Below, piece after piece: positions 5,003-47,488 of a DNA stretch of 64,000 bases (position 1 is its first letter; each line of letters starts with the position of its first letter). Source of the DNA: the human T2T-CHM13v2.0 reference genome, Homo sapiens. The position numbers were made by a program, and so were the translations under genes. The stretch lies in assembly GCA_009914755.4 (NCBI GenBank), contig CP068257.2:34304001-34368000 (forward strand), written 5' to 3'. The notes below the pieces were generated by a model. The model ran no database searches and had not been told where the DNA came from. It saw only the letters and a list, made by a program, of their open reading frames with translations.

Positions 5003-5346
5003 TTTTGTTAATTCATTCTTATATATAATAAATAGATTATTTATTATTAATAAATAATCTATTTATTAATTATAATAAATAATCTATTTATTAATTATAA
5101 TAAATAATCTATTTATTAATTATAATAAATAATCTATTTATTAATTATAATAAATAATCTATTTATTAATTATAATAAATAATCTATTAATAAATAACTT
5201 GTTTATTAATTATAATAAATAATTTATTAATAAGTGATTTGTTTATTAATTATTAATAATTTATTAATTATTAATAAATAATTTATTTATTAATTATTAA
5301 TGATTTTTAATTATTAATTAATATTAAATTTATTTATTTATTAATA
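5003..5346. repeat. AT-rich minisatellite, 25-bp unit ctatttattaattataataaataat. About six perfect copies at 5055-5190, then degenerate copies.
   Basis: The tandem periodicity is directly visible in the sequence. Confidence 0.85.
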
Positions 5347-21324: not shown

Positions 21325-21893
21325 GCACACACACACACAGCATGAGCAAGCACGAACACACACACCCCAACTTACCTCCTCGTTACACATTATACGCCTG
21401 CATGCACACACATACACCCCTACTTACTTACTTCCTCATTATACATCACACATCTGCACACACACACAACCACTACTTACTTCCTCATTACACATCATAC
21501 ACCTGCGTGCACACACACACAAACTTACCTCATTACACATCACACATTTGCACACACACACATCCCTACTTACTTACCTCCTCATTACACATCACACATT
21601 TGCACACATACACATCCCTACTTACCTCCTCATTACACATATCTGCACACACACACACCACTACTTACCTCATTACACGTCACACATCTGCACACACACA
21701 CTTACCTCCTCATTACACATCATACATCTGCACATACACACACACCACTACTTACCTCCTCATTACACATCACACATCTGCACACACACACACACCTTCC
21801 CACATACTTCCTCATTACACATCATACACACACACACATCCCTACCTGTGTACCTCATTACACATCATATATCTACACACTCACACACACACA
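21325..21893. repeat. CA-rich imperfect minisatellite, about 11 units of 37-55 bp (core cctcattacacatcacacatctgcacacacacacaccactacttac)
   Basis: Direct read. The units are anchored on the recurring ctcattacacatca motif. Confidence 0.85.
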
Positions 21894-42032: not shown

Positions 42033-43049
42033 CCCTGTATTAGGGCATCTATGATACTTGCTACTCCCAAATCAGTAAGTCCAATTAGCATGATGTCACT
42101 AATAGGTGAGACAGAGCAATGTTCTGCAGAATGTCAGCATGATCAAGATCCCTGCAGACATGCAGATAGTGAATGTATACTGCTATCCTTGCCACGGAAA
42201 GGCCAACCACTGCAGAGTCCCCCTATTGATGGAGGTTGACAAGAAATCATTTGCCAGATCAGTAGTCACATATGAAGTTTGAGAAGGCGTGTTGCTCTTC
42301 ATCAGTAAATATAGCAAACCCAGCACAACAGCTTCAAGGGGCTATCACCTAATAGCATCTGCCATCATTTATCTGGTTTTTACACGGACACAGTGGGTAA
42401 ACTGAATGGAGATATTATGGGGACCACCACCTCCTTGCAGCTTTGATGTTCTTGATGATAGCAATCATATCTGTACTTCCTCCTGGAATGCCTTGTTATT
42501 CCTGATTGCCATCTTGAATAATGGGGAAAGAACAGTTTCCGATACTTTACTTGGCCCTTCCCACCATAGTTCCTTACTCCATAAGTGGGAGTTCTGCCAA
42601 CCACTAAATATATCTACCCCAATTGTATATTTGGGGACCTGATAAATAACCACAGGGTAGTTTTTGGACCCAGTGGACCAAATGGACCCATTGTGAAACA
42701 GACTTGGGGTAAAACTCTATTTATCACCAGACTTCCTAAAACTGCCAATCTAACGGGACAGGGCAGGTGGGGAGGGACAACATAAGGCATTTAATATTCC
42801 TTGGTATCATTTAAGATCCCTTGGTATTGAAGCAGCTATGTTGTCTGGGGTAAATACCTAGGGTTTGTCATCTCACACCAGGAAAATTTAGGACACAGAC
42901 ACACATGAGGCATTTAGGAGCAGAAGTTTAATAGGCAAAAGAAAAAGAAAGGAAAACAGCTCTCTTTCTCTAGTGAGAGGGAGGGAACTTCCGAGAGGAA
43001 AAGGCCCGCTGGCGGCAGATGCGCCAGATTTTATAGTCAGGCTTGAGGA

Positions 43050-43180
43050 GGCGGTGTCTGATTTACATAGGGCCCACAGATTGGTTCAAGGTGGTGCCTG
43101 ATTTACATAGGACTCACAGATTGGTTCAAGGTGGTGTCTGATTTACGTAGGGCTCACAGATTGGTTCAATCAGGTATGAT
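43050..43180. repeat. Tandem repeat of 3.1 copies of a 40-bp unit, ggYggtgYctgatttacRtagggcYcacagattggttcaa. Each unit carries attgg, the CCAAT complement.
   Basis: Direct read. The copies span 43050-43089, 43090-43129 and 43130-43169. Confidence 0.9.
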
Positions 43181-43687
43181 GTTTACATACCACTGGGGAA
43201 GGCTGGCCACCCACCCTAATCTTACTTAGCAAATGAAATTTCCCCTTGGCTGGGTCATGTTGTCTGTTCTTTACTGTACACGTGGCTATCAAAGAAAAGG
43301 GAAGATGGAGTTGCTATCTTGAACATGATTGGCACAGCTGCCAGCATCTATGTTGGCAGCTTGATTTTACAGGCTGCTCTTTGTTAGAAAATGATTTGGG
43401 GCTGCTTTTCATTAAAGGAAAAACCTTACCGAGGATTTCCGTACCCTCACTACCTGCCTAAGTAATTTCTTCTTAACTCCTTATCAGTATCAGCTCAAAC
43501 CTTGTATATTACTAATCCTCAAAAAGTCTGAATTGTCCCTATTCTCTGGCACTAGTTACTTGGGGAAATGGGTGCAAATTCCTTAAAGGGGAAGATTAGA
43601 AGAACACATTTTCAGGTATACTGTGGAAAATAGAAGGGTCCTTCTTCAAGGAAGCCTAAGTCTTCCCCTCAATCCACACATCAGTCA

Positions 43688-43896
43688 TTGCAATAAAAAA
43701 TTGTAGACTCTCACTCAGTTTTCAAATGTATTTGGTTGGTGCAAAAATAATTGCAATTTTGCCATTAAAAGTCATGGCCAAAACCACAATTACTTTTGCA
43801 TCAACCTAATAAGCCAGTTTGAAAACTTTACTTCAAGCCGGTTTTCAAACTGGCTTACATTTGAAAACTGAGTGAGAGTCCACAATTTTTTATTGC
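43688..43896. repeat. Near-perfect palindrome with arms of about 58 bp (one mismatch) and a 13-nt loop. A MADE1 MITE is inserted at a TA in the left arm.
   Basis: tgcaataaaaaattgtagactctcactcagttttcaaatg TA [MADE1] TA agccagtttgaaaac tttacttcaagcc ggttttcaaactggcttacatttgaaaactgagtgagagtccacaattttttattgca. Confidence 0.85.
43730..43808 (+). mobile_element. MADE1 (Hsmar1-derived 80-bp MITE) flanked by a TA target duplication
   Basis: tttggttggtgcaaaaataattgcaattttgccattaaaagtcatggccaaaaccacaattacttttgcatcaacctaa, compared with the MADE1 consensus ttaggttggtgcaaaagtaattgcggtttttgccattaaaagtaatggcaaaaaccgcaattacttttgcaccaacctaa. Confidence 0.85.
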
Positions 43897-44176
43897 AAGG
43901 GCTGATGTCAACCTTCTATTCTCCAGCTTTCTTTTTATTATTATTATACAATCTTAATAACATCCTAGTTAGCTGTCCTTCTGTCTCATGCCTAGGAACA
44001 CCAGGATCTCTTAACCATTGCTACAAATCTCTGAAGGTTGAGGCACCCTAAGTACTATTCTGCAGTGTTTCCAATTATAATCATTATGGCCACCTTGCCT
44101 CTGGTGGTTACGAGTTGCCTTCTAGTTTTATAATTCTGGAATCTCACTATCCCCATTGATATAAAGAAGTTCAGTT

Positions 44177-44466
44177 GCAGCCGGGTGCAGTGGCTCACTC
44201 CTGTAATCTCAGCACTTTGGGAGGCCGAGGCAGGAGGATTGCTTGAGGTCAGGAGTTCAAGACCAGCCTGGCCAACATGGTGAAACCCCATCTCTACTAA
44301 AAATACAAAAATTAGCCGGGCATGGTGGTGGGTGCCTATAATCTCAGCCAAGGCAGGAGAATTGCTTGAACCCAGGAGATGGATGTTACAGTGAGCCCAG
44401 ATTGCACCAATGCACTCCAGCCTGGGCAACAGAGTGAGACTCCTATTAAAAAAAAAAAAAAAGAAG
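44177..44466 (+). mobile_element. Alu SINE with 13-bp TSD aagaagttcagtt. Its A tail is followed by (AAG)n.
   Basis: Alu consensus match. Direct repeats at 44164-44176 and 44467-44479. Confidence 0.92.
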
Positions 44467-46692: not shown

Positions 46693-47022
46693 TTTTTTGT
46701 TGTTTGTTTTTGTTTGTTTTTTTTTTGTATGTTTGTTTGTTTTTGTTGTTAGACACAAGGTCTCTCTCTGTCACCCAGGCTGGAGGGCAGTGGCACAATC
46801 ACAGCTCACTGCAGCCTTGAGCTCCTGGGCTCAAGTGATCCTCCCACCTCAGCCTCCCAAGTAGTTGAGACTATAGGCACATACAACCACACCCAGCTTA
46901 TTTTTTAATTTTCTTTTTTTTTTCTTTCTTTTGTAGAGACAGTATTTTGCTATGTTGCCCAGCTGATCTCAAACTTCTAGCCTCAAGCAAACCTCCTGCC
47001 TTGGCCTCCCAAAGCACTGGGA
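46693..47022 (-). mobile_element. Older Alu (AluJ-like, antisense) with a degenerate (TTTG)n poly-T leader. It lacks about 25 nt of the Alu 5' end.
   Basis: gacacaaggtctctctctgtcacccaggctggagggcagtggcacaatcacagctcactgcagccttgagctcctgggctcaagtgatcctcccacctcagcctcccaagtagttgagactatagg ... Confidence 0.85.
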
Positions 47023-47036
47023 GATTTTGTTTTTTA

Positions 47037-47189
<153 letters not shown>

Positions 47190-47488
47190 GGCAGGCGGTG
47201 GTGGCTCACACTTGTAATCCCAGCACTTTGGGAGGCCAAGGCCTGTAGATCACCCGAGGTCAGGAAATCAAGAACAGCCAGGCCAACATGATGAAACCCC
47301 GTCTCTACTAAAAATAACAAAAATTAGCCAGGTGTAGTGGCATGCACCTGTAATCCAAGCTACTCAGTTGGCTGAAGCAGAATCACTTGAACCTGGGGGG
47401 TGGAGGTTGCAGTGAGCTGAGATCACACCACTGCTCTCCAGCCTTGGTGACAAAGTGAGTGAGACTCCATTTCAAAAAATAAAAGTAA
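47190..47488 (+). mobile_element. Alu SINE, full length
   Basis: ggcaggcggtggtggctcacacttgtaatcccagcactttgggaggccaaggc ... Confidence 0.9.

What the first reader, a model, noticed from the sequence alone, without database searches (positions are those of the whole stretch)
43688..43896. MADE1-bearing 58-bp-arm palindrome as a candidate miR-548-family hairpin
A 125-bp element forms an almost perfect hairpin, with arms of about 58 bp, one mismatch and a 13-nt loop. A MADE1 MITE at 43730-43808, flanked by a TA target duplication, has inserted into its left arm. MADE1 copies are the established evolutionary source of the miR-548 family. The MADE1 3' arm here, caaaaccacaattacttttgcatcaacc, is within one or two mismatches of the remembered 3p sequences of miR-548 members, roughly AAAAACCACAAUUACUUUUGCACCA. 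If transcribed, the MADE1 stem-loop would be a plausible Drosha/Dicer substrate. The host palindrome is unusually well preserved for a neutral MITE. That suggests either recent origin or constraint on the secondary structure.
Basis: partly seen in the sequence, partly recalled or inferred. Interest (0 to 1): 0.6.

Follow-up and report, generated by a model that had tools for sequence, protein, structure and literature searches.

The report
Decayed MADE1 nested in a palindrome
A mutation-worn copy of the primate MADE1 mini-transposon sits inside one arm of an unusually clean 150-bp palindrome; it resembles miR-548 genes by common descent, and carries the exact miR-548b-5p sequence on the opposite strand, but nothing here shows that it is a working microRNA gene.

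Summary
A 79-bp MADE1 copy (43731-43809) with TA duplications interrupts the left arm of a palindrome.

The MADE1 copy is ordinary and decayed. It has 9 differences from the consensus. Both CpGs are lost and no change is compensatory. Its folding energy is about half that of the consensus.

It matches Rfam mir-548 only below the curated threshold (65/63 bits against 90). The + strand 3' arm is 2 mismatches from miR-548aa. That reflects shared MADE1 ancestry, not gene status: about 74 of about 6,600 homologous loci are annotated.

In context, both strands fold into a three-way junction that sequesters the flanks the Microprocessor needs.

The host palindrome has no target-site duplication and no second copy, and I could not assign it to a family. 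It must pre-date the MADE1 insertion, so "recent origin" fails. Its arms are cleaner than the MADE1 arms (Fisher p 0.015; 0.06-0.12 without CpG). That is suggestive only, and fits chance or quasi-palindrome correction by template switching.

I could obtain no expression or orthologue data. Low interest.

The parts
43678..43730 (.). Host palindrome, left arm, outer segment (53 nt). The last two bases, TA (43729-30), are the left copy of the MADE1 target-site duplication.
   Evidence: Inverted repeat I1: 53 nt, 94% complementary to 43856-43908. Arm alignment.
43731..43809 (.). MADE1 (Hsmar1-derived MITE) copy, 79 bp. It has 8 substitutions and 1 deletion against the 80-bp consensus, and both CpGs are decayed.
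   Evidence: Alignment to the consensus. Rfam mir-548 model, full-length match 1-84, 65.4 bits (-) and 62.8 bits (+). Arm-to-arm comparison: 8 of 37 mismatched.
43810..43811 (.). Right copy of the TA target-site duplication.
   Evidence: The right arm of the host carries a single TA at the corresponding place (43856-57).
43812..43826 (.). Host palindrome, left arm, inner segment (15 nt).
   Evidence: Inverted repeat I2: 43810-43826 against 43841-43857, 17 nt, 100% complementary.
43827..43840 (.). Central loop of the host palindrome (TTTACTTCAAGCCG).
43841..43908 (.). Host palindrome, uninterrupted right arm (68 nt). This is the 'empty site' version of the left arm.
   Evidence: 65 of 68 positions complementary to the left arm once MADE1 is removed.
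43776..43797 (-). 22-mer identical to mature miR-548b-5p (AAAAGUAAUUGUGGUUUUGGCC). It lies in the 5' arm of the minus-strand MADE1 hairpin.
   Evidence: Exact match. The miR-548b-5p sequence comes from PMC9267438.
43779..43803 (+). 25-mer with 2 mismatches to miR-548aa (AAAAACCACAAUUACUUUUGCACCA). It lies in the 3' arm of the plus-strand hairpin.
   Evidence: The miR-548aa sequence comes from PMC6930298.
43738..43756 (+). Degenerate SETMAR/Hsmar1 ITR core motif with 3 mismatches, including the essential positions G18 and G19.
   Evidence: Motif and essential positions from PMC8327481.
43784..43802 (-). Degenerate SETMAR/Hsmar1 ITR core motif with 2 mismatches, both at essential positions (G2, C17).
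43692..43697 (+). AATAAA hexamer in the left arm. It lies upstream of MADE1 for a plus-strand transcript.
   Evidence: Read directly. Its use as a poly(A) signal is untested.
43889..43894 (-). AATAAA hexamer (TTTATT on the + strand) in the right arm. It lies upstream of MADE1 for a minus-strand transcript.
   Evidence: Read directly. It is the mirror image of the hexamer at 43692-97.

Best explanation
This is a nested transposon fossil in Alu-rich anthropoid-primate DNA. No function is demonstrated.

Shown:
- A roughly 150-bp palindrome of unknown family already existed here. It was either an old MITE whose target duplication has decayed, or a local inverted duplication.
- A MADE1 element inserted at a TA in its left arm by cut-and-paste transposition.
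- The MADE1 copy has since decayed neutrally. It is about 11% diverged from the consensus, both CpGs are lost, and every stem change is one-sided.

Inferred from established knowledge: the insertion was made by Hsmar1 transposase, which was active about 50 My ago.

Its resemblance to miR-548 mature sequences is inherited from the MADE1 consensus. This includes the exact miR-548b-5p 22-mer on the - strand. Several thousand MADE1 and ITR copies share that ancestry.

Predicted, not shown: if read-through transcription crosses the locus, either strand folds into a three-way junction. The junction has a 53-bp outer host helix, the MADE1 branch and a 17-bp inner hairpin. The MADE1 stem would then lack the single-stranded basal flanks that Drosha/DGCR8 uses. 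The long outer helix would be a better substrate for ADAR editing, or for low-level Dicer cleavage, than for canonical miRNA biogenesis.

Inferred: the clean host arms are most simply explained by chance or a low local substitution rate. One or more quasi-palindrome corrections by template switching or arm-to-arm conversion, not crossing the MADE1 site, may also have contributed.
For: MADE1 identity:
- 79 bp with TA/TA duplication, 71 of 80 identical to the consensus.
- Full-length hit to the Rfam mir-548 model, whose printed consensus equals the MADE1 arms.
- The 80-bp architecture of 2 x 37-bp TIRs plus 6 bp is described in PMC1784062.

Decay:
- 8 of 37 arm positions are mismatched and none is compensated.
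- MFE is -30.1/-38.4 against -62.6 kcal/mol for the consensus.
- Both SETMAR core motifs are degraded at essential positions.

Below the family threshold: no Rfam hit at gathering score in the whole window. The region scores 65.4/62.8 bits against 90.

Base rate: 74 annotated mir-548 loci against 6,626 homology candidates. There are 2,679 MADE1 copies.

Three-way junction: present in both the MFE and the centroid structure on both strands.

Primate context: CpG depletion and about 30 Alus.

Host palindrome: no TSD, no other copy in the window, no Rfam family.
Against: - The - strand hairpin is still a respectable pre-miRNA mimic. Its roughly 35-bp stem has only wobble pairs and two small defects (-38.4 kcal/mol, z = -7.5). 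It carries an exact known mature sequence, so low-level processing cannot be excluded.
- The host arms (3 of 68 mismatched) are cleaner than the younger insert's arms (8 of 37). Fisher p = 0.015, or 0.002 for the 58-nt arms. Pure neutral decay does not predict this.
- I could consult no expression, small-RNA, editing or orthologue data.
Confidence: 0.8

Rival explanations
1. The MADE1 copy is a functional but unannotated miR-548-family gene. It would most plausibly be read from the - strand and would act as a second genomic source of miR-548b-5p.
For: - Exact 22/22 match to miR-548b-5p on the - strand.
- The - strand hairpin has -38.4 kcal/mol, z = -7.5 and a nearly continuous stem.
- The family is known to arise from either strand of MADE1 by read-through transcription.
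- New members are still being added, and extra loci have been predicted.
Against: - It scores 25 bits below Rfam's curated threshold.
- The base rate is about 1% of homologous loci annotated.
- There are no compensatory changes in the stem.
- Its flanks are sequestered in host helices.
- An AAUAAA hexamer lies upstream of the hairpin on either strand.
- No CNNC or apical UGU motif is visible in the expected places. I read this from the sequence, and the motif rules come from my own knowledge.
- The family itself is regarded as of questionable authenticity by some curators.
Confidence: 0.07
2. The host arms are kept alike by a neutral DNA-level process. This would be quasi-palindrome correction by intra- or inter-strand template switching during replication, or by short-tract arm-to-arm conversion. 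It would have acted separately on the outer (53-bp) and inner (17-bp) blocks after the MADE1 insertion.
For: - The host must pre-date the insertion, yet it is 4.4% mismatched (1.7% for the 58-nt arms) against 22% for the MADE1 arms.
- The 40 arm positions nearest the centre are perfect, and all 3 mismatches lie in the outer 28 nt.
- Template-switch events of up to 83 nt that convert quasi-palindromes into perfect ones are documented in primates.
- Small nested inverted motifs (GTTTTCAAA / TTTGAAAAC, four times) and a partial direct repeat (AAGCC[A/G]GTTT) lie around the centre.
Against: - Any event crossing the insertion site would have copied or erased MADE1, so at least two bounded events are required.
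- The anomaly weakens to p = 0.06-0.12 when the CpG-driven changes in MADE1 are set aside.
- It disappears if the local non-CpG rate was 4% or less per lineage.
- The clustering of mismatches at the outer end is not significant: (28/68)^3 = 0.07.
Confidence: 0.35
3. The host hairpin itself is under selection as a structured element. It could be a long-hairpin RNA (a source of endo-siRNA or an ADAR substrate) or a cruciform-forming DNA site.
For: Very stable fold (-103 kcal/mol, z = -23). It is better preserved than its own insert. It is the only such palindrome in 64 kb.
Against: - No Rfam family matches.
- The three arm mismatches give no strand-consistent wobble pattern: one is U.G on the + strand, one is G.U on the - strand, and one is unpaired on both.
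- A MADE1 insertion that splits the arm was tolerated.
- No evidence of transcription is available.
Confidence: 0.05
4. The MADE1 copy functions as a SETMAR binding site that tunes local chromatin or transcription.
For: SETMAR binds Hsmar1/MADE1 ITRs in vivo. Both ITR cores are recognisable here.
Against: Affinity falls with the number of mismatches. The core motifs here have 3 and 2 mismatches, hitting the essential positions G18, G19 and G2, C17.
Confidence: 0.04

Closest known systems
MADE1 (Hsmar1-derived MITE, Tc1/mariner)
   Same: About 80 bp, two roughly 37-bp inverted repeats around a short spacer, TA duplication, 89% identical to the consensus, and located in anthropoid primate DNA.
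   Different: Nothing essential. It is a typical, decayed copy: 1-nt deletion, both CpGs lost, ITR cores degraded.
mir-548 family (Rfam RF01061; miRBase, about 74-76 precursors)
   Same: Common descent from MADE1. Full-length alignment to the model (E = 6e-13). Exact miR-548b-5p on the - strand. miR-548aa-like 3' arm on the + strand with an identical seed.
   Different: It scores 65/63 bits against the curated 90. There is no evidence of processing. The stem is weaker than the consensus. The flanks are paired into host helices rather than single-stranded. From my memory of the miRBase hairpin, it is not the mir-548b locus itself, because the other arm differs.
miR-548a-2 / miR-548a-3 'type 1' precursors (MADE1 inserted into another repeat)
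   Same: MADE1 nested in another repetitive or structured sequence.
   Different: There the flanking repeat contributes to an annotated precursor. Here the flanking sequence is a self-complementary palindrome that competes for the basal flanks, and no product is known.
Template-switch-generated hairpins (Monttinen, Frilander and Loytynoja 2023, PMC10710096)
   Same: A near-perfect inverted repeat of a size (arms of 68 nt or less) within the reported event length of up to 83 nt. Quasi-palindrome correction would explain the clean arms.
   Different: I had no ancestral or outgroup sequence to show a one-step origin or correction. The hairpin is much longer than a pre-miRNA.
Palindromic MITE-derived miRNA loci such as mir-1302 (MER53)
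   Same: A palindromic, hairpin-forming DNA element (mentions MER53/mir-1302).
   Different: The host shows no target-site duplication and no second copy, and it matches no Rfam miRNA family.

Membership tests
MADE1 MITE | About 80 bp: two roughly 37-bp terminal inverted repeats around about 6 bp | tested here: met
   79 bp. Arms of 36 and 37 nt around the spacer. Definition from PMC1784062.
MADE1 MITE | TA target-site duplication | tested here: met
   TA at 43729-30 and 43810-11. The undisrupted right arm has a single TA.
MADE1 MITE | Sequence similarity to the family consensus | tested here: met
   71 of 80 identical to my recalled consensus. This is corroborated by the Rfam mir-548 consensus and its E-value of 6e-13. 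ITR cores are found with 2 and 3 mismatches.
mir-548 (Rfam RF01061) | Covariance-model score at or above the curated gathering threshold (90 bits) | tested here: not met
   65.4 bits (-) and 62.8 bits (+). There is no gathering-level hit in the window.
mir-548 (miRNA gene) | About 22-nt products from both arms with Drosha/Dicer overhangs, seen in small-RNA data | not testable with these tools
   No expression data are available. Reads on the miR-548b-5p arm would multi-map in any case.
mir-548 (miRNA gene) | Stem of about 35 bp with single-stranded basal flanks (Microprocessor substrate geometry) | tested here: inconclusive
   The stem is present: nearly continuous on the - strand, with three internal loops on the + strand. 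In context, both flanks are base-paired into host helices in the MFE and centroid structures. This is a prediction only.
mir-548 (miRNA gene) | Structure-preserving (compensatory) evolution of the hairpin | tested here: not met
   All 8 substitutions against the consensus are one-sided. The 4:1 split of wobble-forming transitions in favour of the - strand is not significant.
MITE / DNA transposon (host palindrome) | Target-site duplication flanking the inverted repeats | tested here: not met
   No 2-10-bp duplication at or near the arm ends. The best match is 5 of 8.
MITE / DNA transposon (host palindrome) | Multiple dispersed copies | not testable with these tools
   None in the window. No primate genome or Dfam is available. 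Scans of viral, metagenome and prokaryote collections gave only chance 20-mer hits.
Template-switch-generated palindrome | An ancestral or outgroup sequence lacking the inverted copy, with a one-step replacement | not testable with these tools
   I could obtain no orthologous sequences.
SETMAR binding site | 19-bp ITR core GGTGCAAAAGTAATTGCGG with intact G2, G4, T14, C17, G18, G19 | tested here: not met
   The + copy has G18A and G19A (and G10A). The - copy has G2A and C17T.

The most novel reading that the evidence does not exclude
The composite is a transcribed long hairpin whose host stem has been kept paired by selection or by recurrent template-switch correction. Its - strand MADE1 branch would yield a product identical to miR-548b-5p. 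That would make this a second, hidden source of that miRNA and a natural example of a branched (three-way-junction) pri-miRNA.
Probability: 0.06. Interest if true: 0.45.

Novelty: new member of a known kind. Interest (0 to 1): 0.15.

Why it matters
It matters mostly as a caution. Resemblance of a MADE1 copy to miR-548 matures, even a perfect 22-mer, is inherited from the transposon and is not evidence of a gene. Reads assigned to miR-548b-5p can map equally well to this locus.

It also has minor positive value. The nesting gives a built-in clock, because the insert is younger than the host. This makes the locus a small, testable case for asking whether short palindromes in primate genomes are re-perfected by template switching.

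Tried and rejected
1. Orthologues or paralogues through proteins. An exact look-up of the neighbouring 149-aa ORF found nothing on record. A 1,327-aa pseudo-protein made of 21 local ORFs, searched against 5.8 billion proteins, gave no hit.

2. DNA scans with host-arm 20-22-mers. The viral collection gave none. The metagenome scan gave one chance hit, L001. The prokaryote genome scan gave two chance hits, L002 and L003. None of these collections holds primate DNA, so they say nothing about copy number in primates.

3. Host arm as a MIR SINE fragment. Alignment to my recalled MIR consensus scored no better than shuffles. Rejected.

4. Extension of the palindrome beyond 43678/43908. Only an isolated 14-mer (43624-37 against 43912-25, 13 of 14) was found, with no supporting diagonal. 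I treat it as chance.

5. Host as a young MITE. Rejected because there is no TSD, and because an insertion about 50 My old sits inside it.

6. Six-frame Pfam scan of the neighbourhood to find a host gene. The tool refuses translations that contain stop codons. I did not pursue it with pasted ORFs because the answer would not change the verdict.

7. Full-text search for this copy's own arm sequences in 8 million papers found no occurrence.

Full report
OBSERVATION

- A 79-bp element at 43731-43809 is flanked by TA at 43729-30 and 43810-11.
- Removing it and one TA restores a palindrome.
- The left arm is 43678-43730 + 43812-43826. It pairs with 43841-43908 over 68 nt with 3 mismatches.
- The loop is 14 nt (43827-43840).

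The restored hairpin folds at -103 kcal/mol, against -27.9 +/- 3.3 for dinucleotide shuffles (z = -23). It is the only high-identity inverted repeat in the 64-kb window. The other inverted repeats are an AT-rich minisatellite and diverged Alu pairs.

The window itself is CpG-depleted and carries about 30 Alu copies, so it is anthropoid-primate DNA.

THE INSERT IS AN ORDINARY, DECAYED MADE1

The element aligns end to end with the 80-bp MADE1 consensus at 71 of 80 positions, with 8 substitutions and 1 deletion. I recalled that consensus from memory. Its arms are reproduced by the consensus line of the Rfam mir-548 model printed. The architecture of two 37-bp inverted repeats around 6 bp is given in PMC1784062.

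Several features point to neutral decay.
- Both consensus CpGs have decayed to CpA/TpG.
- Arm against arm, 8 of 37 positions are now mismatched.
- Every change is one-sided. No position shows a compensating change in its partner.
- Folding energy has fallen from -62.6 kcal/mol for the consensus to -30.1 (+ strand) and -38.4 (- strand).
- The two SETMAR/Hsmar1 ITR core motifs carry 3 and 2 mismatches. These hit positions reported as essential for binding: G18 and G19 in one, G2 and C17 in the other.

RELATION TO miR-548

The Rfam mir-548 model (RF01061) matches 43729-43811 full length on both strands, at 65.4 bits (-) and 62.8 bits (+), with E = 6e-13 and 3e-12. That demonstrates homology. Both scores are well under the curated gathering score of 90, and nothing in the window reaches any Rfam threshold.

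The + strand 3' arm differs from it at 2 of 25 positions, with the seed intact.

The - strand 5' arm contains an exact 22/22 copy of miR-548b-5p at 43776-43797. That mature sequence comes from PMC9267438. The - strand also gives the better hairpin, because four of the transitions become G.U wobbles on that strand.

From my memory of the miRBase hairpin, this is not the mir-548b locus, because the opposite arm differs. I could not check that against miRBase.

These matches reflect shared descent.
- miR-548 5p sequences stay close to the MADE1 consensus.
- The genome holds 2,679 MADE1 copies and more than 6,000 ITRs.
- One homology survey found 6,626 mir-548-like candidates against 74 annotated loci. 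The base rate of annotation is therefore about 1%.
- Some curators regard the whole family as of questionable authenticity.

STRUCTURAL CONTEXT

Folded within 311 nt of context, both strands give the same architecture in the MFE and centroid structures. It is a three-way junction of a 53-bp outer host helix, the MADE1 branch and a 17-bp inner host hairpin.

From established knowledge, Drosha/DGCR8 measures about 11 bp from a junction between single-stranded flanks and the stem (Han et al. 2006). Later work identified the basal UG, apical UGU and downstream CNNC motifs. Here the flanks are sequestered in helices, and I see no CNNC or apical UGU at the expected places on either strand. The palindrome is therefore more likely to hinder canonical processing than to help it.

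The long outer helix would be a natural ADAR substrate. That is an inference.

Each arm also carries an AATAAA hexamer, at 43692-97 on the + strand and 43889-94 on the - strand. It precedes the MADE1 on whichever strand is transcribed. Whether it is used as a poly(A) signal is unknown.

THE HOST PALINDROME

I could not assign it to any family.
- There is no 2-10-bp target-site duplication at or near its ends. The best match is 5 of 8.
- There is no second copy of the arm or its flanks in the window.
- It shows no resemblance to my recalled MIR consensus.
- No Rfam family matches beyond generic weak hits to long plant hairpins.

Small nested inverted motifs (GTTTTCAAA / TTTGAAAAC, four times) surround the centre.

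The logic of nesting matters here. The right arm preserves the empty site, so the palindrome existed when MADE1 inserted. Hsmar1 activity dates to about 50 My ago, and SETMAR exaptation to 40-58 My ago.

The host arms are nevertheless cleaner than the arms of the younger insert.

| Comparison | Result |
|---|---|
| Host arms mismatched | 3 of 68 |
| MADE1 arms mismatched | 8 of 37 |
| Fisher p, 68-nt host arms | 0.015 |
| Fisher p, 58-nt host arms (1 mismatch) | 0.002 |
| Fisher p, CpG-driven MADE1 changes set aside | 0.06-0.12 |
| Binomial P(3 or fewer of 68), 6% per-lineage divergence | 0.03 |
| Binomial P(3 or fewer of 68), 4% per-lineage divergence | 0.20 |

The anomaly is real but modest.

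It is compatible with chance or a low local rate. It is also compatible with quasi-palindrome correction by template switching. That process is documented in primates for tracts of up to 83 nt (PMC10710096). Any such event crossing the insertion point would have duplicated or erased MADE1, so corrections must have been confined to the outer or the inner block.

Selection on structure is the least supported reading. The three arm mismatches give no strand-consistent wobble pattern, and a disruptive insertion was tolerated.

WHAT COULD NOT BE DONE

None of the available collections holds primate genomes, small-RNA data, miRBase or Dfam.
- The attempts to reach orthologues through ORF products failed.
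- The scans of viral, metagenomic and prokaryotic DNA gave only chance 20-mer hits.

Expression, copy number of the host family and conservation remain open. The exact tests are listed under next steps.

VERDICT

The locus is a homologue of the miR-548 precursors because it is a MADE1 copy. It fails the curated family threshold, shows neutral decay, and sits in a context unfavourable to the Microprocessor. I put the chance that it is a functional miRNA gene at roughly 5-10%.

The one mildly unusual feature is the cleanness of a palindrome that must be older than a roughly 50-My-old insertion. That deserves a look in primate alignments but does not require function. Interest is low (0.15). It is a new instance of a well-known kind.

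Noticed in passing
window 5024-5345: AT-rich 25-bp tandem array (TATAATAAATAATCTATTTATTAAT, about 13 copies, 78% matches). It is also extensively self-complementary, with many 50-90-nt inverted pairs at 70-80%. This makes it a palindromic AT-rich minisatellite of the kind prone to secondary structure.
   Followed up: no
window 21429-21892: Complex CA-rich minisatellite with nested periods of 45, 185 and 230 bp. It produces spurious His/Thr-rich ORFs of 192-207 aa.
   Followed up: no
window 43049-43169: Three tandem copies of a 40-bp unit (91% matches), about 500 bp upstream of the palindrome. I found no relation to the palindrome.
   Followed up: partly
window 46760-47459: Oppositely oriented Alu fragments lie side by side: - strand pieces at 46760-47022, then + strand Alus at 47054-47459. 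They give a 75-nt, 71% inverted pair (46822-46896 / 47052-47126). This is a more conventional candidate for a dsRNA/ADAR substrate than the MADE1 locus.
   Followed up: no
window, whole: About 30 Alu copies in 64 kb, at 74-90% identity to my recalled AluS consensus. There is no CpG island, and no ORF of 90 aa or more looks like a coding exon. The nearest Alu to the palindrome is 44180-44443 (+), with its A-tail running to about 44475.
   Followed up: partly
window 43624-43637 / 43912-43925: An isolated 14-nt inverted match (13 of 14) just outside the palindrome. It would extend the palindrome only if the left side had gained about 40 nt. No supporting diagonal was found.
   Followed up: yes
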